64,000 bases of DNA from Ostreococcus lucimarinus (taxonomy: Eukaryota), in assembly GCA_000092065.1 (NCBI GenBank), contig CP000590.1. One strand, written 5' to 3'. Made by a program: the position numbers and the translations under genes. Every line of letters begins with the position of its first letter. Within the stretch, counting starts at the first letter, position 1. This document shows positions 1-14,987 of this stretch, piece after piece. Below the pieces are notes generated by a model. The model did no database searches. It saw only the letters and a list, made by a program, of their open reading frames with translations, and was not told the origin of the DNA.

Positions 1-2755
1 GAGCCTGAGGGCGCATAACGAGGAAGCGATCGCGAAATATGCAAACTTTCCGGAGTTGGATAAGCCGGACGCGCACGTGGCGCGAGATGCGGATGGGTAC
101 TACGTCGTGAAGGAGGAGTGGCGAAAACCGACGAATCCCTTTGAAAAGTTGAAGCTCGCGAAGGATCCGATGCGAGAGTTGATCGGGATGAACGGGATCG
201 AGGAGATGGCCAAGGCGAGCGCGGCGGATTTCAAGGCTTGGGACGAGGCGTTGAATGACCCGGACGAGACCGATCAACGACCGAAGTGGGCGGGTTTGTT
301 TCATCGACGCAAAGGACACTACGGGCGATACATGATGCGACTCAAGCTTCCGAACGGACTCATTAACTCGACGCAGATGCGATATTTGGCGAGCGTGATT
401 AAAAAGTACGGCGAAGATGGGTGCTGCGACATCACGACGAGACAAAACATTCAGCTTCGTGGGGTTGAGTTGAAGGATGCGCCCGAAATCTTGCGCAAAC
501 TCGAAGAGCTCGGTATGTGCTCGTTGCAAAGCGGGTTGGACAACGTGCGCAACGCGACGGGGAACCCGCTCGCGGGTTTTGATCCGCAAGAAATCGTCGA
601 CACGCGACCTTACACGCTCGCCATTCAAGATTACGTCACCGGTGGTGGGCGCGGGAATCCAGCCATCGCTAACTTGGGGCGTAAGTGGAACGTGTGCGTC
701 GTCGGCAGCAGCGACTTTTTCGAGCATCCGGACATCAACGACTTGGCCTTCATTCCAGCGATGAAGGATGGCAAGTTCGGATTCAACATGATCGTCGGTG
801 GCTTCATATCTTCTCAGCGCGCAGCGGAGTCGGTCTCTCTCGATGCGTGGATCCCTGAGAACGAGCTTGTCGCCGCGACGCACGCCGTGTTGACGACGTT
901 TCGCGATTACGGCCATCGCGGCAACCGCCAAAAGTGCCGCATGATGTGGCTCATCGACGAGATGGGTTTGGAAACGTTTCGCACCGAAGTTGCGTCGCGC
1001 ATGCCAACGGGAGACTTGGCGCGCGGCGCCGAAGTGGATCTCATCGACCGAGAGTCTCCGCGACGCAGTTACATCGGCGTGCACGCGCAAAAGCAAGAGG
1101 GCTTGAGCTGGGTCGCCGCTGCCGTGCCGGGCGGACGTATGCAACCGGAAGATCTCGCGGAGATGGCTGATCTCGCGGACAAGTACGGCGAAGGTGAGAT
1201 TCGACTCACCGTCGAGCAAAACTTTATCATTCCCCACGTGCCGAACGATAAGATTGACGCCATTCTCCAAGAGCGTTTGTTTCAAGAGTACACGCCGTTC
1301 CCGGGCAAACTTGTGTCCAACATGGTGGCGTGCACCGGAAATCAGTTCTGCGGATTCGCGCAAATCGAGACGAAGCGACAAGCGCTCGAAATGGCGGAAC
1401 ACTTGGAAAGTTGCTTAGAACTTTCGAAGGACGTGCGCATGATTTGGACAGGTTGCCCGAACTCTTGCGCTCCGGTGCAAGTGGCGGACATTGGCCTCAT
1501 GGGCGCGCAGGTGAAGAATCCGACGGGCGAGAAGGGCATGGTACCAGGGGTGAACATCTTCATCGGTGGTACCGTCGGGCCGAACGGCCACTTGAAGGAA
1601 GCGCCAGAAATCGCAAAGGTCCCGTGCTCAGAGTTGAAGCCGGTTCTGGAACAGATTATGATTGAGAGGTTTGGCGCGACGCGCAAGGCGACGCCGACGC
1701 CGAATCCGGGGCGAGCGTCGCGCTGGAAAATCAACAAATCTGCGCAGTATACCAAGGGTGTCCCTAAAGCCATGGGTAAGGCGACGCACATTTGCACCGG
1801 ATGTGGTTACATTTATCAAGAGACGAAGAAGTTCGACGAGTTGCCGGATGACTACGTCTGTCCGTCGTGCAGCGCGCCGAAGTCCAAGTTTGAAGCGATG
1901 AAGCAGGAAGAGACGCCCACGAGCGCTCGCCCGGTCGTGGAGTACCCCGAAGGCACGCTCGCGACGCTGAAGAACGGCGAAACCGTTGAATTGAAGCTCG
2001 TTGAGAAGGAACAAGTGACGTCGAACACTGTACGCCTTCGATTTGAACTCCCGTCGCCGGAGCACATCCTCGGACTTCCCGTCGGGCAACACGTGACGGT
2101 GACCATCGACGGCGTGTCTCGTCCGTACACTCCGATCACGCGCGATGCGGACAAGGGTTTCATGGACCTTCTCGTGAAGATTTATGATCAAGGCGCGCTC
2201 ACGCAAAAGCTCAACGCCGTGGCCGTGGGATCTACCGTAGCGTTCGAAGGACCGAATGGGTTGGTGACGTACAGCGCTCGCGGCGAATTTTCTACGCGCA
2301 ATCCGGCGACGGGCTCTGTGGCGAAGAAATCATGCAAGAACATCGCCATGATCGCCGGTGGTACTGGCATCACCCCTATGCTTCAAGTCATTCGCCAAAT
2401 CTTCAACGATGTCGGGGACACGACGCGGGTCAACTTGTTATTCGCCAACGTCTCCTCGGCGGATATTCTCTTGAAGAAGGAGCTCGACGAGCTCGCGAGC
2501 GCGCACAAAAACTTGACGGTGCACTACGCGATCGACAAGGATGAACCAAACTGGAACGGCGAGGTTGGATACGTTTCAGAGGAAATGATCAAGAAGTGCG
2601 ACTTGCTGAAGCGAGGTGGCTTGATGGACAAATTGTTTTCATCCGCCGACGACACCGCGGTCCTCGTGTGCGGCCCGCCGGCGATGGTTGAGAAAGCCGT
2701 TGTGCCCGCGTTGGACGCACTGAATGTCTCTACAGATTCTCGAATTTTCTTTTAA
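1..2755 (+). CDS. NII: Nitrite reductase fused to a rubredoxin domain and an NAD(P)H cytochrome-b5-reductase-type FAD/NAD domain. The 5' end is cut by the window edge: the reading frame is open from nt 2, the listed M at 56 is a TTG, and the true start lies upstream.
   Basis: The N-terminal ~560 aa align along their length to plant ferredoxin-nitrite reductase (EKLKLAKDPM..., LFHRRKGHYGRYMMRLKLPNG, CCDITTRQNIQLRG, siroheme/4Fe-4S Cys cluster TGNQFCG...TGCPNSCA). A rubredoxin motif follows (CTGCGYIY...PDDYVCPSCSAPKSKFE), then a b5-reductase/NR-type flavin domain (RPYTPIT, GGTGITP, CGPPAM). The ORF is continuous to a stop at 2755. Confidence 0.9.
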   Translation, partial: SLRAHNEEAIAKYANFPELDKPDAHVARDADGYYVVKEEWRKPTNPFEKLKLAKDPMRELIGMNGIEEMAKASAADFKAWDEALNDPDETDQRPKWAGLFHRRKGHYGRYMMRLKLPNGLINSTQMRYLASVIKKYGEDGCCDITTRQNIQLRGVELKDAPEILRKLEELGMCSLQSGLDNVRNATGNPLAGFDPQEIVDTRPYTLAIQDYVTGGGRGNPAIANLGRKWNVCVVGSSDFFEHPDINDLAFIPAMKDGKFGFNMIVGGFISSQRAAESVSLDAWIPENELVAATHAVLTTFRDYGHRGNRQKCRMMWLIDEMGLETFRTEVASRMPTGDLARGAEVDLIDRESPRRSYIGVHAQKQEGLSWVAAAVPGGRMQPEDLAEMADLADKYGEGEIRLTVEQNFIIPHVPNDKIDAILQERLFQEYTPFPGKLVSNMVACTGNQFCGFAQIETKRQALEMAEHLESCLELSKDVRMIWTGCPNSCAPVQVADIGLMGAQVKNPTGEKGMVPGVNIFIGGTVGPNGHLKEAPEIAKVPCSELKPVLEQIMIERFGATRKATPTPNPGRASRWKINKSAQYTKGVPKAMGKATHICTGCGYIYQETKKFDELPDDYVCPSCSAPKSKFEAMKQEETPTSARPVVEYPEGTLATLKNGETVELKLVEKEQVTSNTVRLRFELPSPEHILGLPVGQHVTVTIDGVSRPYTPITRDADKGFMDLLVKIYDQGALTQKLNAVAVGSTVAFEGPNGLVTYSARGEFSTRNPATGSVAKKSCKNIAMIAGGTGITPMLQVIRQIFNDVGDTTRVNLLFANVSSADILLKKELDELASAHKNLTVHYAIDKDEPNWNGEVGYVSEEMIKKCDLLKRGGLMDKLFSSADDTAVLVCGPPAMVEKAVVPALDALNVSTDSRIFF

Positions 2756-3024
2756 GACAAAGCGAACAACTACATAGTTTACTCACAATTCATCAGCTCA
2801 CGTCGTTTGTCATTTAAAATCAGTCGACGTCTAAAACATGTTGCGCGGCGCGCGACTGCTTCCGGCGTTCGTTTGCGCACATGAGACTCGATAAGTTAGG
2901 AAAGAAGAGGAATAAGAAAATTACAAGCAACGTCTCCGTAACAAGGACGCGTGTGCACGGTTCATCTATCTACAATTTGTTTTCCCGATGAAGTTGATCG
3001 CGTCGAAAGTCGCGCGTTGCGCGC

Positions 3025-3877
3025 TTACGCATATTGCGCTGCGGCGGCGTTTTGCTTCTTGTAATCGTACATCGTACCGGCAGTGGCGACGATGATAGAG
3101 AACGCGATGAAGAAGCTCATCGTGCCGACGAGCGCTTGCGGCAAGCGGTCGTAGGTGACGACTTCGAAGGTGCAAGAAGAATCGTCGCCGTATCGCACGT
3201 AGCCGCTGGAGTCCGATTCCAAGACTTGGATAAAGTACTTGGCCGGCGCGATGTTCAACGGGAGCGGGATGTCGACGTTACCAGTCGCCGACCCGCCCGT
3301 GATGCCCGCTTTGAGATAGTCGGCCTCGACCACGGTTTGCTTGCATCGCTTGTTCTTGTTGACGATGTCTTTCTTCTTGCGCCACGGCTTGGAGGCGAGT
3401 TCGGAGTCGTCGTAGCACAACTTCACCATCATCGTGTTCCCCGACGTCGTGGAAGCACCGGTCCACGCCACGTTGATGGAGTTCAAACCACCCTGCGCTT
3501 TCTACGAACGTGAAAAACAAATAATCAAGTCAGTCTTCGAATCACGAACGAAATCGCCAGCGTCGCCGCGCCCGACCCCCAAAGGACACTCGCGCCGGTC
3601 GAACGCTTATCCGCCCTCGCGTCGTCTCCGCCCGCGCGTCGTCCCCACGCCACCCACGCGTCCACTCGCGCGTCGAGCGCGCGCCCGAATGCGTTATTTC
3701 TCGCGCGGTCGCGCGCACACGCACCGAACCAGCCGCGCACGCCCCGCCGTCGATCGTCGTCGTCACGCCGAGCGTGTTCGACGACATCTCGCTGTACTTG
3801 GTGAACGCGTGCGCGCCGTCCGCGAGCATCGCCGTGGCGGCGAGACCACCGATCAAGAGCTTCTTCAATTCAACCAT
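3025..3877 (-). CDS. NAR2: NAR2/NRT3 high-affinity nitrate transporter accessory protein. Two exons, join(3025..3501, 3725..3877) on the minus strand, 209 aa.
   Basis: Exon 2 carries the NAR2 signature VKLCYDDSELASKPWRKKKD (plant KLCYA...WRKT) and a C-terminal TM helix SFFIAFSIIVATAG. Exon 1 encodes a signal peptide (MVELKKLLIGGLAATAMLADGAHA). The intron runs 3502..3724 with donor GTGCGTGTGCG, branch ACTGAC (minus strand 3534..3529) 25 nt before the AG and a polypyrimidine tract. An in-frame TAG sits just upstream of exon 2. Confidence 0.75.
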
Positions 3878-4249
3878 CGTCGTTCGTGCGTCGTTCGCGC
3901 GTCGTCGTCGTCGTCGCGGGCGCGTCGAGGAGTGTCGACATCGGCGCGACGCGCGGCGTTTCGGGACGCCAAGCGTCGCCAAAGGGCGACCGTTGGTGAC
4001 CCTTCGTTCCAAGCGTCACACGGCTAAACATCGTTTATATACGCGCGTCGACCCGGTTTATTTTATTAACTATTACGCGTACGCGTGTAAGTTGTATTTT
4101 TACCTTGAATACGTAAAAACACGATGAGGGTTTCGTGAATGTTTTATGCGTCGTCGCGACGGGACGCGACGCGGTGCGACGCCGCGCGTCACTCCACAGC
4201 GCGTCAGCGAGCACGCCGCGACCTCGAATCGCGACAGCGCACGCGCGAA
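3878..4249. promoter_or_regulatory. Bidirectional promoter shared by divergent NAR2 and NRT2. It holds an AT-rich core at about 4020-4140 with TATA-like cgtttatatacgcg and ttattttattaactatta.
   Basis: Only 372 bp separate the two ATGs (3877 minus, 4250 plus). It is an AT-rich island in otherwise >65% GC sequence. The same NAR2/NRT2 head-to-head arrangement is known from Chlamydomonas. Confidence 0.45.
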
Positions 4250-5958
4250 ATGGCGATCACTAAAGAATTCAATGTCCCCGTGGACAGGTGCGTGTGGTTC
4301 GAGGCGCGCGCGAACGTGGGGGGGGGTTAAAGCGACGACGATGCGTCGCGGTTGTGTCGAAACGACGTGGTCGAATCGAGCGCGTGTGCGGTCGCGCGCG
4401 ATGGCGACGCGGCGCTCGAACGCGTCGATAACGATGAAAGATATATTTGTTTATGCTTTCATGCCCGCGAGACTGACGTGTAACGCGCGGTGCCGTCGTA
4501 CGTGGCCACAGCGAGCACAAGGCGATGAAGCTGAACGTCTTCAGCTTTGATCGCCCGCACCACTTGTCCTTCCACATGTCCTGGTTGGGTTTCTTCATCT
4601 CTTTCGTCTCGACGTTCGCGGCGGCGCCGATGATTCCGGTGATTCGTGAAGACTTGGGTCTCACGAAGCCGCAGCTCGGGAACGCTGGTTTGGCGGCGGT
4701 GACGGGTACTATTATTTGCCGCGTGCTGATGGGTACGGTGTGCGACCTCATCGGCCCGCGACTCGGTTTGTCGGTTATTCTTTTGGCCACCGCGCCCTTC
4801 TGCTTCGCCATGGCCATGGTGCAAGGCTTCGAAGGTTTCCTGATCTGCCGTTTGGGCATCGGTCTGGGTCTCGCCACGTTCGTGGCGTGCCAGTTCTGGA
4901 TGTCTTGCATGTTCAACAGCAAGTGCGTCGGTCTCGCCAACGCGACCGCCGCGGGCTGGGGTAACTTGGGCGGCGGAGTCACGCAATTCTTGATGCCGGG
5001 CATCTACGCCATCTGCTACTCGGCGACCAACAGCCGTGCGTTCACTGCCTGGCGTTGGGCGTACATCTTCCCGGGCATGTGCCACACCGTAGTCGGTTTG
5101 ATGGTCATGTACCTCGGCCAAGATTTGCCGGATGGTAACTACAAGGTGCTCACGACTTCGGGCGCGCTCGAAAAGAAGTCCTCCATGAAGGTCAACTTGA
5201 TCGGCATGAAGAACTACCGCATGTGGTGCATGGTCGCCACCTACGGTTTCTGCTTCGGCGTTGAACTCACGATGAACAACATCGTCGCCGGTTACCTCTT
5301 TGATCAATTCGGCGTCTCCCTCTCTGTCGCAGGCGTGTTGGCGTCTTGCTACGGTATGATGAACTTGTTCGCCCGCTCCGTGGGTGGCATCATCTCTGAC
5401 TGGTCTTCTAACCGCTTCGGTATGCGAGGACGTCTTTGGACTTTGTGGTCCACCCAAACGCTCGAAGGTGTGCTGTGCATCTTCATGGGTCTCTCCAAGG
5501 ACAACTTGGGCGCCACCATCGCGTTCATGGTGTTCTTCTCCATTTGCGTGCAGGCGTCCGAAGGCGCTTCTTACGGTATCGTGCCGTTCATCTCCCGCCG
5601 CGCTCTCGGTGTCGTCTCTGGTTTCATCGGTGCTGGCGGTAACGCTGGTGCCACCATCGCCACCGCCGCCTTCTTCACCAAGGATTCCATTGAGACGTAC
5701 GAAGGTCTCCAGTACCTCGGTTACACCGTCATCGGCGTCACCGCTTTGGTCATCCCGATTCACTTCCCAATGTGGGGCTCCATGTTCTTCCCGGCATCCA
5801 AAACGGCCACGGAAGAGGACTACTACATTCACAACGAGTTCACTCCGGAAGAAATCAAAGCTGGTCTCGCCGCTCCGGTCCAAAAGTTCTGCAACAACTC
5901 TCGCAACGAGCGCCCGGTTTGGAAGCGCGAGCAAGATGCGGTTGAAGCCTCCGCGTAA
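4250..5958 (+). CDS. NRT2: NRT2 high-affinity nitrate/nitrite transporter (MFS nitrate-nitrite porter family). Two exons, join(4250..4287, 4512..5958).
   Basis: 12 TM helices and the AGWGNLGGG NNP signature. Exon 1 (MAITKEFNVPVD) splices so that the junction reads PVDSEHKAMKLNVFSF...HLSFHMSW, matching the conserved NRT2 N-terminus (PVDSEHKA...FHLSW). The intron 4288..4511 has donor GTGCGTGTGG and branch ACTGAC at 4472..4477, 32 nt before the AG at 4510-4511. Confidence 0.85.
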
Positions 5959-6122
5959 TTCTTTTTTACTCTCGCGTCGCAAGAGTGCATCGTTTATAAA
6001 AAATCACCTCTACGTAGTGTGTAACATAACTCTTATTGCAAACTCTCCACGAACAGCCGACGTCTGGGGCGACGCGCGAAATTGATCAACAAATTGTCTT
6101 CCTACAAATTCAACTCTACGCT

Positions 6123-7550
6123 CTATCGCTGCCCGCCTTCGGCGGACGGTCCCACTTCGAGTCTACGCTGCACCTCCATCAATATGTGCGTCCCGATCCC
6201 CGCGGCGAAACCAATCGCCGTACTCTTAGTCGCGATCGTCACCGCAGCGGTCACCATGACGAGATACTTCTGGTGCTGATGCCATCCGGGTTTCGTCTTC
6301 AAGCCCATGCCAATGAGCTCCAAACTCGACGAAAATAACATGACTCCTAATATAGTCTTCGGAAAGTGCTCCAAGAGCTTCGTTAATGAGCTCCCGAATA
6401 ATAAACCGAGGGCAAGCTTGCACAAGCCGAGGAACACGATCGATCCTCCGCCGCGAGCACCGAAAGCGTACTGAGCCGCTAAACCGCCAGCGCCGTGGCA
6501 CGACGGCATCGCGCCTACCCAACACCCGACGATATTCATCATCCCCACGCTCGTCGCCACTGAGCTCGGCGACGCGGGAAAATCAGGAAACAATTCTTTG
6601 CTCAGTGCACACACGGAGATCACTGAATTTAACGTCGTCAATGGAAGTTGCGGGACGCCGGCGTTTACGATGCCGCGCTTTGCCTCGGACCACGACGCGC
6701 TCAAAATCTTTGGCGTGGCTGGTCCAAACTTCAATCCGCTCAGCGCGCCATCTTTCGTCATGGCCATGGTGATACCGAGCACAACGAGAATAAGCGCCAT
6801 GGGAATGTAGTGACGCATGCGTTTCCGACGTTCGCCATCCGCCTCAAGTTCGCCTCGCTCGTCGCGAATTGCCGGATACTCGGGCGAGCACACATACATG
6901 ACCGCACACATGGCCACGATGGTGACCAGTAGGCCATCCGTGCCAAACATCCCTCGCACCACACTAGCATCGCTCGACGTGTACACCGCGAGTAAAAACC
7001 CTTTCCTGGCGAGCAACAATCCAAGTCCCACTTGCATGCCTTGCACAACCGCGAGCGGCGTCACTTTATTAAACGTGTCCATCAATCTCGTCGTTCCAAG
7101 CACCAACACGATGGAAGACACGAACAAACCGGCGACCATAATTTCGTTGACATTCAACGGCGACTCTCCCAACGCCACCGCCGCGATCGTCTTCATCGGC
7201 TGCACGGGCATGGGTATCTCGTACAGAAACGCCGTGAGCACGTTGTACAATCCCGTGAACACGATTGTCGTCCCCGCGTCCACGCCACACTCGATCGACA
7301 TCCCGACGAGCAGCGGTAAAAAAGTCCCGAGATCTCCAAGCGCGCCGCTCGCCTCTCGCCAACCGAACTCGCGCCAAAACTTTTCCGCGCGCGCGCCGAC
7401 GACCGCCGCCGTCCCGCCGACGCGCCCTCTCGTCGCGCGCAGCTCCGACGCCGTCGTCTCGCCGCGCTTCTCGCGCGCGCCCGCGTCCACGACGCGAGCG
7501 TCATCATCGTCGTCCGCGATGCGAATCTCGTACTCACCCGCGGACGTCAT
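6123..7550 (-). CDS. MOT1: MOT1-family molybdate transporter
   Basis: Both MOT1 signature motifs are present, GDLGTFLPL...PVQPMKTIAAVA and FGAMPSCHGAGGLAAQYAFGARGG, in a multi-TM protein of 475 aa. ATG confirmed at 7550. Confidence 0.8.
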   Translation of the reverse strand: MTSAGEYEIRIADDDDDARVVDAGAREKRGETTASELRATRGRVGGTAAVVGARAEKFWREFGWREASGALGDLGTFLPLLVGMSIECGVDAGTTIVFTGLYNVLTAFLYEIPMPVQPMKTIAAVALGESPLNVNEIMVAGLFVSSIVLVLGTTRLMDTFNKVTPLAVVQGMQVGLGLLLARKGFLLAVYTSSDASVVRGMFGTDGLLVTIVAMCAVMYVCSPEYPAIRDERGELEADGERRKRMRHYIPMALILVVLGITMAMTKDGALSGLKFGPATPKILSASWSEAKRGIVNAGVPQLPLTTLNSVISVCALSKELFPDFPASPSSVATSVGMMNIVGCWVGAMPSCHGAGGLAAQYAFGARGGGSIVFLGLCKLALGLLFGSSLTKLLEHFPKTILGVMLFSSSLELIGMGLKTKPGWHQHQKYLVMVTAAVTIATKSTAIGFAAGIGTHILMEVQRRLEVGPSAEGGQR

Positions 7551-7770
7551 CGCGCGAGGGCGTCGTGACCTTTCGCGTCCCGCGAAAAGCGCTTTTTCGC
7601 GTGGATGCTCGACCCGCGCGCGTCGCCGCGCGCGCGGATGCGCGAGGAACGCTCGAGGAGATCGTGTTTAACCCAACCCGTGCGCGTGCGCGTCGCGCGC
7701 GAGGCGTAAGCGTCGCGCGCGCTGACGTGTGTGGACGCGAAATGAGAACGTGGGGACGCGCGCGCGCGCG

Positions 7771-7812
7771 CGCGACGAAGACGAAGACGAAGACGAAGAC
7801 GAAGACGAAGAC
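7771..7812. repeat. (GAAGAC)x7 hexanucleotide microsatellite in the MOT1 / CNX2 intergenic spacer
   Basis: gacgaagacgaagacgaagacgaagacgaagacgaagag read directly from the sequence. Confidence 0.9.
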
Positions 7813-7842
7813 GAAGAGACGATGGAAATCTCGCGCAACAGG

Positions 7843-9078
7843 CTAACCCCCTATCTTGATCATCGCGCGATTATCCTGCGCCGCGAGCTCGTGCATGCCC
7901 GCGTGCGCGGCCTTCTTTCGCTTGACCGCAGCGCCGATGACGCGCAAAATGTCGTCGTCCGACGCGCCCGAGCGCATGGCGTCTCGCAAGCTCACCTCTG
8001 AATTGCCGAATAAACAAACCTTCAAATTACCGTCCGCCATGATGCGTAAGCGGTTACATCCGCCGCAGAATGAGTTCGTCATGCTCGTGATGAAGCTCAC
8101 CGAACCTTTGTGACCGGGCAGGGTGAAGTTCTTCGCGACTTCCTCGCGCGGGTCGTCGACGCGCGTCAACGCGCCGTACGCCTCTTCTATTCTCGCGCGC
8201 ATCTCGGCGTACGACACCATCTTCTTCGTGCTCCACTTATTGCCGTCGAACGGCATGTACTCTATAAATCTCACATTAATCGGCTTGTCTTTCGTCAACG
8301 CCACGAAATCAAGCAGCTCGTCGTCGTTTTGCCCGCGCATGACGACGCAGTTCACCTTGACGCTCTGAAATCCGAGTTCGCACGCCTTGTCGACGCTCGC
8401 CAGTACCCGATCGTGCCCTTTCCTCCGCGTCATGAACTCAAACTTCGCCGGCACGAGCGTATCAAGCGACACATTCAAACGCGTCAATCCGTTCGCTCTA
8501 AGCGCGTCTAACCGCTTCGCGAGCGTCACTCCGTTCGTCGTGACGCTCGTCTCGCGCACCCCCGGCGTCCCGCTCACCCGTCGCACCACGTCTTCCAAAT
8601 CTTTTCTCAGCGTCGGCTCACCCCCGGTGAGCCGCACTTTATCCACCCCAGCCGCGGCAAATATTTTAACCACCCTCCCGATCTCATCCGCGGTGAGCAA
8701 CTCATCCTTCGCCGTCAAATCCACGCCGTCCTCGGGCATGCAATACCCGCACCGCAGGTTGCACTTTTCCGTCAAGCTGATGCGCAGGTAATTATGCCCT
8801 CGCCCGAACGCATCCACGAGTTCCGGCGCGACGTTCGCCGTTCGCGACGTCATCGCGCGCGCGGCGACTCGCGGATCGATTCGCGCCCTCGCCCGCGCGC
8901 CCTCGCCCGCGCGCGTCGGTTCCTCCACCGCTCGCCGCGGTGCACTTTTTGTCCCGAGCGCGCTCACCGCGTCCTCGCGCGCGCGTTCGACGCCCTGATC
9001 GCCGCGCGCGATCGCCGCGAGCGTCGCGCTCGCGCGCCGCGCGCCCGGGCGCGTCCACGCGCCGCGCGCGAGCGACAT
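7843..9078 (-). CDS. CNX2: Molybdenum cofactor biosynthesis protein A (GTP 3',8-cyclase, CNX2/MOCS1A-type radical SAM enzyme). The ORF extends to 9324, but the ATG at 9078 gives a 75-aa R/A/S-rich mitochondrial-type presequence and avoids overlap with the divergent gene starting at 9155.
   Basis: The radical-SAM core aligns with E. coli MoaA from [27 protein letters not shown] through GGEPTLRKD to the C-terminal FeS cysteines CGGCNRLR. The start choice is inference; alternatives are 9324 or 8853. Confidence 0.8.
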
Positions 9079-9154
9079 CCTCTGACGTCGCTTCGCGTCG
9101 TTTCGCCCTGTCGACCGGACCGCACCGCGCGTCACTCCGTCGCGCGCGCTCGCG

Positions 9155-9937
9155 ATGTCGCGCGCGCTCGAGGACGACCACGGCTCGTTCGCCGTGATAG
9201 ATCTCGTCGCGCACCTGTACCGCGGCGGCGCGGAAGATCGAGGCGCGCTCGCGAAGATTTGGTCGCGGTACAGCGATGCGACGGTTTCAGAGCGGAAGAC
9301 GACAGGTTTCGAGATGGTGCGCATGCATCACGCGACGCTGACGAGGATGTTTCGAGACGGTGCGTGCGACACGCTCAATTTTCGCGAGCGCGACGCGCGT
9401 CGGGACCGAGGGCGCGCGGTCGAGGGACGGGACGCAAAACGGCGCGAGACGGGACGACGACGAGGACGGGCGAGCGGGACGCGACGGACCGACTGACGAC
9501 GACGACGCGTTCGAACGCGAAAAGACCCGGATGGGGATTACTTAGATATCGAAGACGTGCGCATGACGTGGGAAGAGTTCGTGGACGCGCTGAGAGACGC
9601 CACGGGGGCGTCGGCGGATGAACCGGCGTCGCCGGAGAACGCGAAGTCGTACGACGCGCTCGAACGACCGGTGATGCAAAGAAATCAATCGTTCTCGAAC
9701 TTGGCGAAGGATTTGGAGGAAGTCATCGCCGCCGCGCGCTCGCCCGGGACGAGCGCGGACAACACGCCCGAAGGTTCGACGCGTGGGATTCAGAGAATTT
9801 CATCCTCTGGGATGCTTTTGGGCATCGGCTGCTCGAGCCGCGAACCGTCGCTTCGAGGCGGCAACGCGTTTCACGCGGGCATGACCGTGCGCTCGGAAGA
9901 TTTGAAGAGTCGCCTCGAGAAGAACGCGACGCAGTGA
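9155..9937 (+). CDS. Hypothetical protein of 205 aa. Two exons, join(9155..9359, 9525..9937). Function unknown; it lies inside the Moco/nitrate cluster.
   Basis: Exon 1 has unbiased composition up to ...TLTRMFRD. The GTGCGTGCGAC donor at 9360 and the ACTGAC branch at 9492..9497 (25 nt before the AG at 9523-9524) join it in phase to the ORF continuing [16 protein letters not shown]... No recognisable domain. Confidence 0.45.
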
Positions 9938-10070
9938 TCGTTTCCGCGAAATGCGCCGCATCAATACGCGTAATACGTCAATATAATCTATTGTACCTCG
10001 CTCCCGCGCCGAAAAGCGCAGCCAAAAGTCGCTTCGCCCCACAAGTCGTCGGCGTCGACGCGCGCGCGTC

Positions 10071-11447
10071 ATGCCCGCCGAAACCGAAACCGCGCGCAAG
10101 TACCACATCGTCGGCGACTACGCCACCGCGCTGAACCCTCGAAACGACGCGCGAAGCGTGGAAAAATACGCGCGACACTTGGTGCTGCGTCCCCACGGCG
10201 CGCGCATCCAACGCGCGCTGTGCGCCGCGCGCGTCCTCGTCGTCGGCTGCGGTGGCCTCGGGTGCCCGTGCGCGATATATCTCGCCGCCTCGGGCGTGGG
10301 AACGCTCGGATTGTGCGACGCGGACGCGGTGGAGCTGAGCAACTTGCATCGACAGGTGGGACACTCGACGGCGGCGACCGGGACGTCGAAGGCGAAGTCG
10401 TTGGCGGCGCGGTGCGAGGGATTGAACGATGGCGTTCGAGTCGTGGTGCGAGAAACGTTCGCGACGACGGAAAATGTGATGGAACTTGTGGCGGGGTACG
10501 ACTTGGTGTGCGATTGTAGCGATAATCCGAGGACGAGGTATTTGTTGTCGGACGCGTGCGCGAGCGCGGAGATTCCGCTCGTGAGCGCGGCGTGCGTGGG
10601 ATTTGAAGGGCAGCTCACGGTGCTGTGTGGCACGCGAGCGTGGAATGATGACGATGAATCGTTTGGGGAGTTTGCGCCCGCACCGTGTTATCGATGTTTG
10701 TTTCCGACGCCGCCGGCGTCGGGAGACGCCGGGACGTGCGGGGCGTCTGGCGTGCTCGGACCGCTGCCTGGCATCGTGGGTACTTTTCAAGCGCTCGAGG
10801 CCATGAAAACGCTGGCTGGGGTAGGGGAGTCCATGCGAGGAAAAATGTTAACGTTCGACGCGTTGAGCGCGAGACCGACGATGACGTTGAACATGCGGGA
10901 ACAGCGAGACGCCGCGTGCGCGTGTTGCTCGACGTTGACGTCTCACGACGGACGCTTCGACGTCGCGACGTACGATTACGACGCTTTCTTATCGTCGACG
11001 CCGTGTCCGATGCGCGGAAGAAAAGCGAGACGCGGTGGCGTTGATGTGAACGCGCCGCCGAAGTTTGGGGCGCGAGAAATGCCGGAGCGCGGCGGCGGCG
11101 GCTGGCGACGCGTGGATGCGAAAGCGGCGACGACGTACGTCAAAGATGAGGGCGTCACCGTAGTCGACGTGCGTCCCAAGCACATGTACGACGCAGCGCA
11201 CATACCTGGATCTATTTCGTTACCAATAGAAACGCTCGACGTCGAGACGTGGAACGGCGCCGTGGGCGCGGCGGTTGAAGGATACCGTCTGTGCTTCGTG
11301 TGCGCGGGAGGCAACAACAGCCAAAGAGCGGCGCAATGGTTCGTGGACGCGAAAGTCGCCACCGCTGCCCCGGCGAGCGTCGTCGACGTTTGTGGCGGTC
11401 TCGCCGCGATGCGCGACGCGGGCTACGACGTCCCGAGACTCGATTGA
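10071..11447 (+). CDS. MOCS3: MOCS3/CNX5 adenylyltransferase-sulfurtransferase (MoeB/ThiF E1-like domain plus C-terminal rhodanese domain)
   Basis: ThiF nucleotide-binding motif VLVVGCGGLGCP, zinc CxxC pairs, and a rhodanese domain with active-site Cys in CFVCAGGNNSQRAAQW. ATG at 10071. Confidence 0.85.
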   Translation: MPAETETARKYHIVGDYATALNPRNDARSVEKYARHLVLRPHGARIQRALCAARVLVVGCGGLGCPCAIYLAASGVGTLGLCDADAVELSNLHRQVGHSTAATGTSKAKSLAARCEGLNDGVRVVVRETFATTENVMELVAGYDLVCDCSDNPRTRYLLSDACASAEIPLVSAACVGFEGQLTVLCGTRAWNDDDESFGEFAPAPCYRCLFPTPPASGDAGTCGASGVLGPLPGIVGTFQALEAMKTLAGVGESMRGKMLTFDALSARPTMTLNMREQRDAACACCSTLTSHDGRFDVATYDYDAFLSSTPCPMRGRKARRGGVDVNAPPKFGAREMPERGGGGWRRVDAKAATTYVKDEGVTVVDVRPKHMYDAAHIPGSISLPIETLDVETWNGAVGAAVEGYRLCFVCAGGNNSQRAAQWFVDAKVATAAPASVVDVCGGLAAMRDAGYDVPRLD

Positions 11448-11655
11448 TTAAAATTGTTTCAACGCGCGGCGAGCACTTTATTTCTACAACAACACGCCTA
11501 CGATTCCACGCGCGCTTGCACGATCTCCGGTCGTTCACCCTTGGATTCCGCGGTTTGCATCGTCGCGAGCGCCGCCTCGACGACGCCCTCGGTGAGTTCG
11601 CCGCTCGCGCTCATCGCGTCCACCACCTCCTGCGCCTCTTCGGGCGATTGCGAGT

Positions 11656-12339
11656 TCAGAACTTTGTAGTAATTCGAAAAGTCGCGGCGACGATCGCCCC
11701 ACCCACGATTCGCCGCCACCACCGTCCACGCCGCGGCTTCTCGCCCTTATCCGACGCGGCGTCGCGCGTCGAGAGCGCGACCTCCGCGACGACGTCCTCT
11801 TCCGACCGCCCCTGCGGGCATCCGTTCGCCTCGAGATATCGCAACACGCCCTCGCTCGCGCCGCCCGCGTACTTGACCCAAAAGTCTCTGTCTTTCGCCA
11901 ACCACGCCGGCACCGGCGACGCGCGCGTCGTCGTCTCGCGCTCCGTCTCCGCCTCCGTCTCCGCCTCCGCCTCCGCCTCCGCCTCCGCGTCGCCCTCGCG
12001 CGTCACCACCCCGATCTGAAAATCTCTCAGCTGCGTCCACGCCCGCGCGCTGTGAATCTCCTCGAACTCATCGCTCGCCTCTTTCCCGAGCGCCCGCGCG
12101 ATCGCCAGCGCCGTCGACACCTGCCCCGCGTTGTTGAATCCCGGGTGCGTCGTCGCGAACGCCGTGATGTCGAACACGCGCTCGCGCACCACGATCCATC
12201 CGTCCGCGAGGCGCGCGTGCGCCGCGACGTCCTCGCGCGTGTACTTTCGCCACCTCGCGCGCTCGTCGTCCGTCGGCGCGCGCCGGAGCGCGTCGACGAC
12301 GGCGAGGTCGACGGCGACGTCGCGCCCGGACGCGTGCAT
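11656..12339 (-). CDS. Cytochrome b5-domain protein with a C-terminal tail-anchor helix, transcribed divergently from nitrate reductase. The listed ORF extends to 12798 through R-rich sequence.
   Basis: Heme-binding b5 fold YTREDVAAHARLADGWIVVRERVFDITAFATTHPGF...DEFEEIHS with both His ligands. An (EA)n linker is encoded by a (CTCCGC)n repeat at about 11941-11990. C-terminal hydrophobic tail RRGRWWRRIVGGAIVAATF. The C-terminal frame is uncertain: an alternative frame (ORF 11498..11722) also looks protein-like. Confidence 0.55.
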   Translation of the reverse strand: MHASGRDVAVDLAVVDALRRAPTDDERARWRKYTREDVAAHARLADGWIVVRERVFDITAFATTHPGFNNAGQVSTALAIARALGKEASDEFEEIHSARAWTQLRDFQIGVVTREGDAEAEAEAEAETEAETERETTTRASPVPAWLAKDRDFWVKYAGGASEGVLRYLEANGCPQGRSEEDVVAEVALSTRDAASDKGEKPRRGRWWRRIVGGAIVAATFRITTKF

Positions 12340-12658
12340 CGTCGCGCCGTTCGAGCGCGGACGACCGGACGCGTCGTCGGCGGCGCGCGGACGCGCGGCC
12401 GCGCGCGCGCGGACGCGTCGCGCGTCGCGCGCGCGCGTCGCGCGTCGCGTCGTGGCGCGACGACGTCGACGGGCGCGAAGCGTCACTTTGGTAAAAAAGG
12501 AAAAAATGCGTATGGGCAAACAGTATGACGCTTCGGCGACGCTTGGAGATTCCGAAACGACTCGGTCGACGGCTGGCGTCGACGCGACGCGACGCGCACA
12601 ACGCGGCCCTCGCGCGGTCGACGCGGCGTCGCGAGACTCGAAGCGTCGTCGTCGAGTC

Positions 12659-14324
12659 ATGGCGAACGCCGTCGTCGCGATCGTCGCCGCGGGCGCGGGC
12701 GCGTTCGCGGGCAAGCTGCTCGACGGGAAAAAGCGCGAGACGTCGCGAGGCGCGGACGACGCGGACGACGTCGACTTTAAGACGGACGCGAAGTCCAACG
12801 TCGATCACGCGGCGGCGGCGAAAAAGCATCAGTACCTGGCGCAGAAGTACCCGGAGGTGGACGAGCGAGACTTGAAGACGCCGGATAATTGGGTGAAGAG
12901 GCATCCGTGCGTGCGAGACGCGAGGCGACGCGAACGCGGGACGACGAGGACGCGGCGAACGACGACGGCGCGCGTGACTGACGGTGGTTTGCGTCGATCG
13001 TGGTGATAGGAATTTGATTCGTCTGACCGGGAAACACCCGTTTAACGTCGAGGCGTCGCTTCCGGAGTTGTATGATTACGGATTCATCTCGCCGGTGAAC
13101 TTGCACATCGTGCGGAATCACGGCGCGGTGCCGAAGTGCGATTGGGACACGCACAAGATTAACATTTGTGGCAACGTCCCGAAACCGTTCGAGATCGGTA
13201 TGGACGAGTTGGTGAAAATGCCGAGCGACACGTTCCCGTGCTTGGTGGTGTGCGCGGGGAACCGTCGGAAGGAACAAAACTTGGTCAAGTCGTCGATTGG
13301 GTTCTCGTGGGGGCCGTGCGCCATCGGAAACACGTACTGGACGGGCGTACCGCTGCGAGTGTTGCTCAACAGAGCGGGCATTCATAAGCCCGGTCCGGGT
13401 GCGCGATACGTGTGCTTGGCTGGTCCGCAAAACGAATTGCCGAAGGACTACCCCGATCAAGACGGTGGTCCGGGATCGTACGGCACATCCATCGACATGG
13501 AAACCGCGCTCGATCCGACGTGCGATGTCATTGTGGCGTACGAACAAAACGGTGCCAAGCTTCACCCAGACCATGGATTCCCAGTGCGGGTGATCATTCC
13601 CGGTTACATCGGTGGGCGCATGATAAAGTTTTTGAAGGAGATTAAAGTCACCGACAGAGAGTCAAACAACTTTTATCACTTCAACGATAACCGCGTGTTA
13701 CCGCCGCCAGTTGACGCTGAGCGCGCGACCGAGGAGGGATGGTGGTTCAAGCCCGAGTTCATCATCAACCAACTCAACATTAACGGTGCCATCGCGTACC
13801 CGGCGCCCGAAGAAGTCATTCCCAAGTCGCAAAAGACGTACGCCTTCAAAGGTTACGCCTACTCTGGCGGCGGTCGCAAGGTCATTCGCGCCGAGCTTTC
13901 CTTCGATCAAGGCTTGAGCTGGGAATTGAGTGATATTCACACTCGCGAAGAACCGCGATGGGCCGATTTCAGCTCCGGTGACAAGGCCAGGCACTGGTGC
14001 TGGTGCATGTGGACTCTCGAAGTGCCGATTGAGAAGCTCCTCGACAAAAAGTGCGTCGAAGTGTGCTTCCGCGCCGTCGATCAATCCATGAACAAAATGG
14101 ACGAGCGCCCGACGTGGAACGTCATGGGTATGTTGAACAACCCGTGGTACCGCGTCCGCATCCACCACACGCCCACGGGCGACGTTCGCGTGGAGCATCC
14201 GTGCATCGCCGGTCCGACCCCCGGCGGCTGGATGCAAAAGATGGCGGCTAAGGAACCCACCGGAGAACTTCTCTGGGGCTGGGGCGGCCAAGGCACGCCG
14301 GCCGCGCCCCCGAGAGAAGAATAA
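12659..14324 (+). CDS. NIA: Nitrate reductase, Mo-molybdopterin and dimerisation domains only. Two exons, join(12659..12906, 13010..14324), 520 aa. It stops in hinge 1 with no cytochrome-b5, FAD or NADH domains.
   Basis: NR-specific motifs TPDNWVKRHP|NLIRLTGKHPFN (splice junction), Mo-ligand Cys in LVVCAGNRRKEQNLVKSSIGFSWG, and the dimerisation domain WWFKPEFIINQLNING...YAFKGYAYSGGG...WNVMGMLNNPWYRV...GGWMQKMAAKE, then a stop after about 30 more residues followed by an AT-rich 3' UTR. Intron 12907..13009 with donor GTGCGTGCGAG and branch ACTGAC at 12977..12982. Confidence 0.8.
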
Positions 14325-14485
14325 ATTATTCGTGATGTTTTTCGATTTATTATGACCTCGTGTAAGATTATCACCATCATTCCTTAAGTCTCTCTCTCTT
14401 CGCCGTCGACGCTCGGCGTCGACGCTCGCGCGCCTCACACGCAGCCTCGCGTCCGACTTCGCTTCATCCCACGACCGCGCGCGCG

Positions 14486-14767
14486 ATGGATCTCATATTC
14501 ATCCTCCGTCAATACATCGGCATCGTCCTCTCCATGGCCGCCTTCGCCGGCTTCGCCTTCTGCACCAAACTCGAGCGACGCTTCGACCTCGACCAAACCA
14601 AAATCATTCACGTCTCCGTCGGTCTCGCCGTCGTCGGCCTGCTGTTCCACGAACTGCGCCCGTACAAGCGACAGGCTGGATTGACGTTTAGCAAAGAGCA
14701 GGCCGAGGAGGAGTGGAAGGCGCGCGAGGAGGAGATCGCCGCGGCGAAGACGAAGAAGAAAAAGTAA
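14486..14767 (+). CDS. Small hypothetical membrane protein (93 aa, two hydrophobic helices, Lys-rich tail)
   Basis: A real ATG with unbiased composition, sitting between the NR 3' UTR and the kinase gene. No recognisable family. Confidence 0.3.
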   Translation: MDLIFILRQYIGIVLSMAAFAGFAFCTKLERRFDLDQTKIIHVSVGLAVVGLLFHELRPYKRQAGLTFSKEQAEEEWKAREEEIAAAKTKKKK

Positions 14768-14987
14768 CTTTTCGACGGCGCGCGCGGGACGCGTCGAGTT
14801 CGCCGCTCGAGCGGCGCGGCGCGGCGTCGCGACGCGCGTAGGTTGTAATTCGATTAGCGTCGCGCTCGCGCGCCGCGCGTCCGTCCGCGTCGTCGTCGAC
14901 GGCGTCCGCGAGGCTTCGGGCGCGACGTCGACCCCGCGCCAAGGGACACGAAGAGGCGCGAGGAGACGGCACTCCGCGCCGCGACGC

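What the first reader, a model, noticed from the sequence alone, without database searches (positions are those of the whole stretch)
1..2755. Nitrite reductase fused to rubredoxin and an NAD(P)H cytochrome-b5-reductase flavin domain
A ferredoxin-type NiR (siroheme/4Fe-4S) continues in one uninterrupted ORF into a rubredoxin CxxCG...CPxC domain and then an RPYTPIT/GGTGITP/CGPPAM flavoprotein domain identical in type to the C-terminus of NR. This would let NAD(P)H drive nitrite reduction directly through FAD and rubredoxin Fe without ferredoxin. Together with the truncated NR, the reductase module appears to have moved from NR to NiR within the same cluster. I recall a similar NiR fusion reported for Mamiellales, but I cannot verify that here.
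Basis: partly seen in the sequence, partly recalled or inferred. Interest (0 to 1): 0.65.

Follow-up and report, generated by a model that had tools for sequence, protein, structure and literature searches.

The report
Nitrite reductase fused to own reductase
The window starts inside the single nitrite reductase gene of the marine picoalga Ostreococcus lucimarinus, which does carry a built-in rubredoxin and NADH-flavin reductase tail, but this fusion was already described in sister species and was not taken from nitrate reductase.

Summary
One uninterrupted frame (window 2-2755, running off the left edge) encodes a plant-type siroheme/[4Fe-4S] nitrite reductase (NiR), a 4-Cys rubredoxin (Rd), and FAD_binding_6/NAD_binding_1 domains.

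The organism is Ostreococcus lucimarinus CCE9901. The full protein is 987 aa with a transit-peptide-like N-terminus.

The fusion is real. It is conserved in Ostreococcus, Bathycoccus and Micromonas-like sequences, in Chlamydomonas sp. UWO241 and in other algae. It is present in a complete transcript. In an intron-rich relative it lies within one exon.

It is already published as NIRFU (Cuvelier 2017). In O. tauri the tail was listed as a separate 'Cytb5R' gene.

- A full-length canonical nitrate reductase (NR) sits just left of the window.
- The in-window 'truncated NR' is a separate, transcribed paralogue.
- The flavin domain is cytochrome-b5-reductase-type: 45% identity to an animal CBR3, against 31% to the alga's own NR.

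The most likely function is NADH → FAD → Rd → [4Fe-4S] → siroheme, alongside ferredoxin. This is untested, and ordinary Rd potentials argue against it. Bacterial NirA–Rd–reductase fusions support it.

The fusion is known, so interest is modest. The split NR-like/cytochrome b5 gene pair is the fresher lead.

The parts
1..2755 (+). C-terminal 917 codons plus the stop of the nitrite reductase-rubredoxin-flavin reductase fusion gene (NII1/NIRFU orthologue). The start codon and 70 codons of presequence lie left of the window.
   Evidence: Open frame. Full 987-aa ORF on contigs that are 99.5% identical.
83..1687 (+). Ferredoxin-type nitrite reductase module: two NIR_SIR_ferr/NIR_SIR repeats. The siroheme/[4Fe-4S] cysteines are C444, C450, C485 and C489 (nt 1328-1354 and 1451-1471).
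   Evidence: Pfam. 681 bits against tobacco NiR 3B0G over aa 28-562, with the cysteine motifs aligned. Motif positions.
1688..1786 (+). Linker 1. Its start carries the conserved motif FGATRKATPTPN.
   Evidence: The motif is conserved in all fusion homologues down to about 45% identity. AF2 pLDDT is 47-55 here.
1787..1897 (+). Rubredoxin domain: CxxCGY ... CPxC[S/G]AxKxxF, with four invariant cysteines.
   Evidence: Pfam Rubredoxin and RUBY_RBDX. PDB rubredoxins at 29-33 bits. Invariance shown.
1898..1990 (+). Linker 2, between the rubredoxin and the flavin domain.
   Evidence: Variable in the alignment. pLDDT about 58-60.
1991..2272 (+). FAD-binding domain of cytochrome-b5-reductase type (RPYTPIT at nt 2120-2140).
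   Evidence: Pfam FAD_binding_6. CBR3 structures are the best PDB matches.
2348..2698 (+). NAD(H)-binding domain: GGTGITP (nt 2357-2377), CGPPAM (nt 2669-2686), and the Asp of the 'YxxD' motif (nt 2522-2536).
   Evidence: Pfam NAD_binding_1. The Asp column is invariant in all fusions and all CBRs.
3025..11447 (.). Remainder of the nitrate-assimilation cluster: NAR2 (3025-3486, -), NRT2 (4525-5958, +), MOT1 (6123-7550, -), CNX2/MoaA (7843-9324, -), CNX5/MoeB (10071-11447, +).
   Evidence: Pfam. Same gene order on contigs L001-L004 and in the published O. tauri cluster.
12659..14324 (+). It is an NR-like paralogue of 520 aa with Moco and dimerisation domains only. Exon 1 is 12659-12906, the GT..AG intron is 12907-13009, exon 2 is 13010-14324. 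It is not part of the fusion and is listed only because the finding invokes it.
   Evidence: Pfam. 330 bits against Pichia NR and 212 bits against sulfite oxidase. Splice and stop confirmed by an Ostreococcus transcript of 523 aa at 90% identity.
11656..12330 (-). Cytochrome b5 gene lying head-to-head with the NR-like paralogue. It resembles the haem domain of NR.
   Evidence: Pfam Cyt-b5. 35% identical to the haem domain of the canonical NR. Called as a 223-aa gene on the contigs.

Best explanation
This is the O. lucimarinus orthologue of the Mamiellales nitrite reductase fusion protein NIRFU, and it is the alga's only nitrite reductase.

The domain order is: plastid presequence, plant-type siroheme/[4Fe-4S] NiR, a linker of about 30 residues, rubredoxin, a linker of about 30 residues, then a cytochrome-b5-reductase-type FAD/NADH domain.

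Proposed mechanism:
1. NADH gives a hydride to FAD. NADH is preferred over NADPH in this model because the Asp that sets NADH preference in b5 reductases is invariant.
2. The flavin passes single electrons to the tethered rubredoxin iron, which takes the place of cytochrome b5.
3. Rubredoxin delivers them to the [4Fe-4S] cluster and siroheme, where nitrite is reduced to ammonium.

This gives a pyridine-nucleotide route, for example in the dark. It probably operates in addition to photosynthetic ferredoxin.

Shown here: the gene, the domains, the cofactor-binding motifs, the conservation of the fusion, and the CBR-type origin of the flavin domain.
Inferred: the direction and sequence of electron flow, the NADH preference, and continued use of ferredoxin.
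For: - Domains and motifs are all present.
- The window is O. lucimarinus CCE9901. Its MOT1 protein is an exact match to XP_001420100.1. The deposited NiR model matches the window up to ...ERFGA.
- The fusion is the sole NiR listed for each Mamiellales genome (Table 1 in PMC4620153). The NiR module must therefore be the working assimilatory enzyme.
- Full-length fusions occur in many lineages: Ostreococcus spp. (86-100% identity), Bathycoccus (67%), Micromonas-like sequences (64-67%), several unnamed algae (45-51%) and Chlamydomonas sp. UWO241 (47%). All keep the four Rd cysteines and the linker motif.
- A complete MMETSP transcript of 967 aa carries all the domains.
- In an intron-rich relative, one exon spans the NiR C-terminus, Rd, FAD and NAD domains.
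- Only a few fusion-type cluster representatives appear among the best 150 of 1.84 billion 50%-identity representatives. Two of them are full length and the rest are fragments. The architecture is therefore rare but selected.
- Independent bacterial proteins join NirA to a 4-Cys Rd-like knuckle at the same position, followed by a reductase. Some have Rieske plus FAD_binding_6/NAD_binding_1; one has Pyr_redox_2 plus Rubredoxin_C, the classical rubredoxin reductase. This argues that Rd feeds the NirA module.
- AF2 gives confident domains joined by low-confidence linkers, consistent with a tethered shuttle.
- The Asp equivalent to the residue that sets NADH preference in CBR is invariant (its role is from my memory of rat CBR D239 mutagenesis).
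- Cuvelier et al. reported a predicted plastid transit peptide and light-responsive expression, and proposed ferredoxin- plus NAD(P)H-dependent reduction.
Against: - No enzymology exists for any member. [quoted passage not shown]
- From textbook values recalled, not computed here: typical rubredoxins sit near -100 to +50 mV, whereas the spinach NiR [4Fe-4S] and siroheme sit near -365 and -290 mV. The Rd-to-cluster step would be about 0.3 V uphill unless this Rd is strongly tuned.
- The natural partner of a CBR-type flavin domain is cytochrome b5, and a cytochrome b5 gene lies 9 kb away.
- AF2 pTM is only 0.63 and no coordinates were available, so no Rd-to-cluster distance supports docking.
- I did not test whether the ferredoxin-docking surface is retained.
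Confidence: 0.6

Rival explanations
1. The Rd-CBR tail does not supply the six electrons for catalysis. It does accessory redox work: re-reducing or reactivating an oxidised cluster or siroheme, or removing O2, NO or hydroxylamine that leaks from the active site, as rubredoxin chains do in anaerobes. Ferredoxin remains the only catalytic donor.
For: Ordinary rubredoxin potentials are too positive to reduce the NiR cluster efficiently (recalled values, not computed here). The NiR module is 55-58% identical to plant ferredoxin-NiRs over its whole length. In one relative the fusion gene sits beside a truncated globin, a class linked to NO handling.
Against: Bacterial NirA fusions carry full reductase chains, which looks like bulk electron supply. 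The linker and Rd are strictly conserved across roughly 45-100% identity. No detoxifying catalytic domain is present.
Confidence: 0.2
2. The CBR-type tail reduces a different acceptor in trans. NiR serves as a scaffold. One candidate is the tail-anchored cytochrome b5 and the NR-like Moco-only protein encoded in the same cluster, which lack a flavin reductase of their own.
For: The flavin domain is closest to true cytochrome b5 reductases. The cluster encodes an NR-haem-like cytochrome b5 head-to-head with a Moco/dimer-only NR paralogue. In another Mamiellales-like organism the NiR-fusion cluster and the NR-like cluster report the same longest-contig length (164,102 bp), so they may lie on one contig there.
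Against: NiR carries a plastid-type presequence (predicted for M. commoda). The cytochrome b5 has a C-terminal tail anchor and the NR-like protein an N-terminal hydrophobic stretch, which suggests a different compartment or membrane face. An invariant rubredoxin lies between the flavin and everything else. A housekeeping CBR is expected in any eukaryote. The fusion also occurs in lineages for which I have no evidence of the split pair.
Confidence: 0.1
3. One reading: the flavin module was transferred from nitrate reductase to nitrite reductase within the cluster, leaving NR truncated.
For: Both modules belong to the same Pfam families. A Moco-only NR-like gene exists in the window.
Against: An intact five-domain NR lies next to NiR (published gene order). 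The flavin domain is 31% identical to that NR but 45% identical to an animal CBR3. Mean identity across the alignment is fusion-CBR 48% and fusion-NR 39%. In a bootstrapped NJ tree the fusion domains group beside the CBRs and never inside the plant/green-algal NRs, although deep nodes are weak (33-52%). The Moco-only paralogue is old and shared with Pycnococcus, Pseudoscourfieldia and Pyramimonas.
Confidence: 0.03
4. Gene-model artefact: two adjacent genes (NII1 and a separate 'Cytb5R') that merely share a reading frame.
For: O. tauri was listed with a separate Cytb5R gene. The deposited O. lucimarinus model is a 633-aa 'partial' protein ending at ...ERFGA.
Against: There is no stop codon in the reading frame between the modules. 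The junction sequence is conserved across distant lineages. Gene calls on independent contigs of the same organism are single ORFs of 987 aa, and other lineages give single ORFs of about 880-1070 aa. There is a complete 967-aa transcript. One exon spans the junction in an intron-rich species. RNA-seq-improved models in M. commoda show the fusion.
Confidence: 0.02

Closest known systems
NIRFU, the nitrite reductase fusion protein of Micromonas commoda (XP_002507511; Cuvelier et al. [quoted passage not shown]
   Same: Same domain order (NiR, rubredoxin, FNR/cytochrome-b5-reductase-like domain). Same order of algae. Plastid-type presequence. Same position in the nitrate-assimilation cluster.
   Different: This is the O. 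lucimarinus copy. Its deposited model stops after the NiR part. The paper limited the fusion to four Mamiellales; here it is also found in Chlamydomonas sp. UWO241 and in other unnamed algae.
Plant ferredoxin-nitrite reductase (tobacco Nii3, PDB 3B0G; spinach, PDB 2AKJ)
   Same: 662-681 bits over aa 28-562. The siroheme/[4Fe-4S] cysteine motifs are conserved.
   Different: Plant enzymes end where linker 1 begins. They have no internal reductase and depend on free ferredoxin.
NADH-cytochrome b5 reductase (CYB5R3; PDB 1NDH, 1UMK)
   Same: Best structural-sequence match of the tail at 197-205 bits. RPYTP, GTGITPMLQ and CGPP motifs are shared. The Asp linked to NADH preference is conserved.
   Different: It is fused to an enzyme rather than membrane-anchored. 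Its immediate acceptor is a rubredoxin iron centre, not the haem of cytochrome b5.
NAD(P)H-nitrite reductase of the NirB type (bacteria, fungi)
   Same: Works alike in principle: a pyridine nucleotide feeds a flavin, then an iron-sulfur relay, then a siroheme/[4Fe-4S] NIR_SIR module in one polypeptide.
   Different: NirB uses Pyr_redox_2 and a BFD-type [2Fe-2S] domain placed N-terminal to the siroheme module. None of these domains is present here. The two are not homologous fusions.
Uncharacterised bacterial NirA-Rd-like-Rieske-FAD/NAD and Rieske-NirA-Rd-like-rubredoxin-reductase fusions (P0469, P0444, P0459, P0439)
   Same: A 4-Cys knuckle follows the NirA module at the same position and is itself followed by an NAD(P)H-flavin reductase.
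   Different: Only 29-32% identical overall. They have an extra Rieske domain. The knuckle is shorter and lacks the CGY/AxKxxF rubredoxin signature. At least P0469 comes from a bacterial genome assembly. They are probably independent inventions.
Assimilatory NAD(P)H-nitrate reductase, C-terminal cytochrome b reductase fragment (corn, PDB 1CNE/2CND)
   Same: Same fold family (FAD_binding_6/NAD_binding_1).
   Different: Clearly more distant (125-139 bits; 31% identity to the alga's own NR). There is no cytochrome b5 domain between the catalytic and flavin modules.

Membership tests
Ferredoxin-type (NirA) siroheme nitrite reductase | Two NIR_SIR_ferr plus NIR_SIR repeats | tested here: met
   Pfam E 1e-42 and 5e-48, two stretches each.
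Ferredoxin-type (NirA) siroheme nitrite reductase | Four cysteines (Cx5C ... Cx3C) that bind the [4Fe-4S] cluster and bridge to siroheme | tested here: met
   C444/C450 and C485/C489 are present and align with the tobacco NiR motifs.
Ferredoxin-type (NirA) siroheme nitrite reductase | Closer to nitrite reductases than to sulfite reductases | tested here: met
   662-681 bits against plant NiR; 72-87 bits against sulfite reductase haemoproteins. It lies in the NRT2/NAR2/NR cluster.
Ferredoxin-type (NirA) siroheme nitrite reductase | Accepts electrons from reduced ferredoxin | not testable with these tools
   Needs an enzyme assay. The docking residues were not mapped because the mutagenesis paper is not held.
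Rubredoxin | Two CxxC knuckles about 20 residues apart with the rubredoxin signature (CxxCGY ... CPxCxxxKxxF) | tested here: met
   The sequences are HICTGCGY and VCPSCSAPKSKF. Pfam 26.9 bits (cut-off 23). The four cysteines are invariant in 19 fusion sequences.
Rubredoxin | Binds one iron atom and cycles between Fe(III) and Fe(II) | not testable with these tools
   Needs spectroscopy and potentiometry.
NADH-cytochrome b5 reductase (FNR superfamily) | RxY(T/S) FAD motif, GxGxxP and CGPxxM NADH motifs | tested here: met
   RPYTPIT, GGTGITP and CGPPAM are present. Pfam FAD_binding_6 and NAD_binding_1.
NADH-cytochrome b5 reductase (FNR superfamily) | Closer to CBR than to the NR reductase fragment | tested here: met
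   205 against 125-139 bits. 222-241 against 50-176 bits. 45% against 31% identity. NJ tree, with weak deep support.
NADH-cytochrome b5 reductase (FNR superfamily) | Reduces cytochrome b5 | not testable with these tools
   There is no cytochrome b5 domain in this protein; the adjacent acceptor is rubredoxin.
NIRFU (Mamiellales NiR fusion) | Single polypeptide in the order NiR, rubredoxin, FNR/CBR-like domain | tested here: met
   Orthologues at 64-88% identity, including Bathycoccus prasinos.
NIRFU (Mamiellales NiR fusion) | N-terminal plastid transit peptide | tested here: inconclusive
   The N-terminus is outside the window. On contig L001 it is a 70-residue Ala/Arg/Thr-rich presequence. No targeting predictor was available.
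NirB-type NAD(P)H-nitrite reductase | Pyr_redox_2 FAD/NAD domain and BFD-like [2Fe-2S] domain N-terminal to NIR_SIR | tested here: not met
   Neither domain was detected. It may work like NirB but is not a member.
   for similarity. An intact five-domain NR lies next to NiR.

The most novel reading that the evidence does not exclude
The CBR-type tail on the plastid nitrite reductase is the missing flavin reductase of the split nitrate-reductase-like system encoded 9-11 kb downstream. That system is a Moco/dimer-only NR paralogue plus an NR-haem-like, tail-anchored cytochrome b5. Under this reading the cluster encodes a three-protein, mARC-like nitrate/nitrite (or NO-forming) redox chain physically coupled to nitrite reduction. 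This is a redistribution of NR's three modules over three genes.
Probability: 0.06. Interest if true: 0.7.

Novelty: already known. Interest (0 to 1): 0.3.

Why it matters
Ostreococcus, Micromonas and Bathycoccus are among the most abundant eukaryotic phytoplankton. Nitrite reduction is the most electron-costly step of their nitrate use.

A nitrite reductase that can draw on NADH through its own flavin and rubredoxin would uncouple that step from photosynthetic ferredoxin, which matters at night, in deep mixing and under iron stress. It would also be a compact, self-sufficient enzyme for engineering.

That idea is already in the literature, and nobody has tested it. What this analysis adds:
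- The tail comes from a cytochrome b5 reductase, not from nitrate reductase.
- The fusion is wider than Mamiellales.
- Bacteria built analogous NirA-rubredoxin-reductase chains.
- The public O. lucimarinus gene model omits the tail.

Tried and rejected
Rejected after the locus was extended with near-identical contigs, which showed an intact NR next door, and after similarity tests.
- **In-window Moco gene as sulfite oxidase.** Considered because plant sulfite oxidase is also Moco plus dimerisation domain only. Rejected: 330 bits to Pichia NR against 190-212 bits to sulfite oxidases, and the NR-type motifs (VRNHG, CAGNRRKEQN, DNRVLP) are aligned and conserved.
- **In-window Moco gene as a mis-assembled or pseudogenised NR.** Rejected: complete transcripts of 521-523 aa exist in Ostreococcus and Micromonas, and there are orthologues of 495-510 aa in Pycnococcus, Pseudoscourfieldia and Pyramimonas.
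- **First NJ/bootstrap script.** Timed out. It was rewritten. Deep nodes remain weakly supported, so I rely mainly on pairwise scores.
- **Derelle et al. 2006 (PMC1544224) and the spinach NiR-ferredoxin mutagenesis paper (PMC2902899).** Neither is held. The original O. tauri description is cited only through PMC4620153, and the ferredoxin-docking residues could not be mapped.
- **AF2 model.** It gave per-residue confidence only, with no coordinates or PAE, so no Rd-to-cluster distance could be measured.
- **The 165/166-nt extra segment at 11517-11681.** Tested as an intron and rejected: there is no GT..AG at any permitted boundary.
- **Literature searches for a biochemical study of the fusion or a description of the NR-like paralogue.** Nothing was found beyond PMC5344333 and PMC4620153.


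Full report
**1. Observation**

Frame 2 of the + strand is open from window base 2 to a TAA stop at 2753-2755, which is 917 codons. Pfam finds the following, all above curated cut-offs:
- two NIR_SIR_ferr/NIR_SIR repeats
- a rubredoxin at aa 597-630
- FAD_binding_6 at aa 664-757
- NAD_binding_1 at aa 783-899

The first 562 residues align end to end with tobacco and spinach ferredoxin-nitrite reductases at 662-681 bits. The alignment includes the Cx5C and Cx3C motifs that hold the [4Fe-4S] cluster and siroheme.

One correction is needed. The ORF does not begin at the TTG at base 56. It runs off the left edge of the window.

**2. Organism and context**

The window's MOT1 protein is an exact match to XP_001420100.1 of Ostreococcus lucimarinus CCE9901. 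The deposited NiR model of that genome, XP_001419920.1, matches the window including a strain-specific Ala.

Four metagenome contigs carry an identical NRT2 and are 99.2-99.7% identical to window 1-16000. They extend the locus to the left. The full NiR gene encodes 987 aa, and its first 70 residues are an Ala/Arg/Thr-rich presequence.

The gene order on the contigs and in the window is:
- NAR1
- canonical NR on the opposite strand (939-967 aa; Moco, dimerisation, Cyt-b5, FAD_binding_6 and NAD_binding_1 domains)
- the NiR fusion
- NAR2, NRT2, MOT1, CNX2, CNX5
- a cytochrome b5 gene on the minus strand
- an NR-like protein with Moco and dimerisation domains only
- a 93-aa ORF, then a protein kinase

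This reproduces the published O. tauri cluster NAR1-NIA1-NII1-Cytb5R-NAR2-NRT2-MOT1-CNX2-CNX5. [quoted passage not shown] The rest of the window, 15-64 kb, holds ordinary housekeeping genes.

**3. Is the fusion real?**

Yes. The evidence:
- There is no stop codon in the reading frame between the modules.
- Gene calls on independent contigs of this organism give a single 987-aa product.
- Full-length homologues with the same order exist in other Ostreococcus (86-88% identity), Bathycoccus prasinos (67%) and Micromonas-like sequences (64-67%). There is also a more distant set at 45-51%, which includes a complete MMETSP transcript of 967 aa and Chlamydomonas sp. UWO241 (953 aa, an intron-rich gene).
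- All nineteen sequences examined keep the four rubredoxin cysteines, the CGY/AxKxxF signature and a linker motif FGAxR(K/R)xxPxPN at the end of the NiR module.
- In an intron-rich, unnamed eukaryote the last exon alone spans the NiR C-terminus, Rd, FAD and NAD domains.
- In another compact-genome alga the fusion sits beside NRT2, CNX2 and a truncated globin.
- Only a few fusion-type cluster representatives appear among the best 150 of 1.84 billion 50%-identity representatives, two of them full length and the rest fragments. The architecture is rare but conserved.

**4. Already known**

Cuvelier et al. 2017 (PMC5344333) named the Micromonas commoda protein NIRFU. They described the C-terminal rubredoxin and cytochrome-b5-reductase-like FNR domain and predicted a chloroplast transit peptide.

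The points that appear to go beyond that paper are:
- the O. lucimarinus deposited model stops at ...ERFGA and is flagged partial
- the fusion extends beyond Mamiellales

**5. The 'module moved from NR' idea**

This idea is contradicted on three counts.
1. The cluster's canonical NR keeps its own haem and flavin domains.
2. The Moco-only gene in the window is a distinct paralogue.
   - It is 49% identical to the canonical NR over the Moco and dimerisation domains.
   - It is NR-like rather than sulfite-oxidase-like (330 against 190-212 bits), and the NR-type motifs (VRNHG, CAGNRRKEQN, DNRVLP) are aligned and conserved.
   - It has two exons (12659-12906 and 13010-14324) and encodes 520 aa.
   - An Ostreococcus transcript of 523 aa and a Micromonas transcript of 521 aa end at the same place.
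   - Orthologues of 495-510 aa exist in Pycnococcus, Pseudoscourfieldia and Pyramimonas.
   - It is an old gene, not a recent truncation.
3. The NiR tail is cytochrome-b5-reductase-like.
   - Against solved structures it scores 197-205 bits with mammalian CYB5R3, but 125-139 bits with maize and Ulva NR FAD domains.
   - It is 45% identical (236 bits) to a brittle-star CBR3 and 31% identical (131 bits) to the alga's own NR.
   - Fifteen of the 16 CBRs sampled score 222-241 bits (the sixteenth aligned only in part), whereas 14 NRs score 50-176 bits.
   - Mean alignment identity is 48% (fusion-CBR) against 39% (fusion-NR).
   - In a bootstrapped NJ tree the fusion domains form a group (52% support) next to the CBRs, never inside plant or green-algal NRs. 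Deep nodes are weak.

**6. Mechanism**

I commit to NADH → FAD → Rd-Fe → [4Fe-4S] → siroheme → nitrite, operating alongside ferredoxin.

Shown:
- all cofactor motifs are present
- the fusion is conserved
- it is the only NiR listed in these genomes
- the flavin domain is of CBR type
- the Asp of the CBR 'YT(L/V)D' motif is invariant in every fusion; by my recollection of rat CBR D239 mutagenesis, this Asp selects NADH over NADPH
- AF2 gives confident modules (pLDDT 82 overall; flavin domain about 90; Rd 71-79) joined by two low-confidence linkers at about aa 570-595 and 632-655, with pTM 0.63; this is compatible with a tethered shuttle but does not demonstrate docking

Independent support comes from bacteria. 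Proteins 29-32% identical to the query join NirA to a 4-Cys knuckle at the same position, followed by one of three arrangements:
- Rieske plus FAD_binding_6/NAD_binding_1 (P0469, P0444)
- Rieske alone (P0459)
- Pyr_redox_2 plus Rubredoxin_C, the classical rubredoxin reductase (P0439)

P0469 lies in a bacterial genome assembly near nrfH and nrfA.

Inferred:
- the direction and order of electron transfer
- continued use of ferredoxin
- a dark or non-photosynthetic role

The main caveat comes from recalled textbook values, not computed here. Ordinary rubredoxins are about 0.3 V more positive than the NiR cluster. Either this Rd is tuned low, or the tail has an accessory rather than a catalytic role.

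**7. Rivals**

- Accessory or protective redox role: 0.2.
- Trans-donation to the neighbouring cytochrome b5 and NR-like pair: 0.1. This is attractive because the tail is CBR-type and that pair lacks a reductase. It is weakened by predicted topology: a plastid presequence on NiR, against a tail anchor on the cytochrome b5 and an N-terminal hydrophobic stretch on the NR-like protein.
- Transfer from NR: 0.03.
- Gene-model artefact: 0.02.

**8. Verdict**

The feature is real, correctly read at the domain level, and already published for sister species. The evolutionary interpretation is wrong.

Interest is modest (0.3), because the biochemistry is still open. The by-products may be more interesting than the finding itself: the CBR origin of the tail, the wider distribution, the bacterial analogues, and the split NR-like/cytochrome b5 pair.

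Noticed in passing
window 12659-14324 (+): An NR-like protein of 520 aa with only the Moco and dimerisation domains. It has two exons and a 103-nt GT..AG intron at 12907-13009. The NR-type motifs are conserved and there is an N-terminal hydrophobic stretch (MANAVVAIVAAGAGAFAGKLL). It is transcribed and conserved in Ostreococcus, Micromonas, Pycnococcus, Pseudoscourfieldia and Pyramimonas. It exists in addition to the canonical five-domain NR. I found no description of it in the searchable literature, and the published tables count one NR per genome.
   Followed up: partly
window 11656-12330 (-): A cytochrome b5 gene lies head-to-head with the NR-like gene. Its haem domain resembles the haem domain of NR (FEEIHSARAW; 35% identity to the canonical NR). 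On the near-identical contigs it ends in a tail anchor (...IVGGAIVAASARGIVGVLL). Together the two genes look like a split NR lacking a flavin reductase, which recalls mARC plus tail-anchored cytochrome b5 plus CBR.
   Followed up: partly
window 11517-11681: A 165/166-nt segment is present in the window but absent from four otherwise 99.2-99.7% identical metagenome contigs. It falls in the 3' end of the cytochrome b5 gene and replaces the tail anchor with ...TFRITTKF*. It is not bounded by GT..AG and has no second copy in the window. It may be a strain indel or an assembly difference.
   Followed up: partly
window 1-1690 versus XP_001419920.1: The deposited O. lucimarinus CCE9901 NiR model is a 633-aa 'partial' protein ending at ...ERFGA. 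It omits the rubredoxin and flavin domains even though the reading frame continues for another 354 codons.
   Followed up: yes
L005 8001-10889 (P0469); also P0444, P0459, P0439: Uncharacterised proteins join NirA to a 4-Cys rubredoxin-like knuckle and then to one of three arrangements: Rieske plus FAD_binding_6/NAD_binding_1, Rieske alone, or a Pyr_redox_2/Rubredoxin_C rubredoxin reductase (the last one also has an N-terminal Rieske domain). P0469 comes from a bacterial genome assembly and lies near nrfH/nrfA-like genes; the sources of the other three were not determined.
   Followed up: partly
L008 1200-7850: In an unnamed compact-genome alga the NiR fusion (878 aa) is flanked by a truncated globin (Bac_globin), CNX2 and an NRT2-like transporter. 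Truncated globins are linked to NO handling in algal nitrate metabolism.
   Followed up: no
L009 10001-16363; L006 8175-11434: The fusion also exists in intron-rich green algae. One is Chlamydomonas sp. UWO241 (953 aa). The other is an unnamed eukaryote in which a single last exon spans the NiR C-terminus, Rd, FAD and NAD domains. This is wider than the four Mamiellales listed in the 2017 paper.
   Followed up: partly
window 14486-14767 (+): A 93-aa ORF with two hydrophobic stretches lies directly after the NR-like gene. It is called as a gene of the same length on the contigs and has no Pfam match.
   Followed up: no
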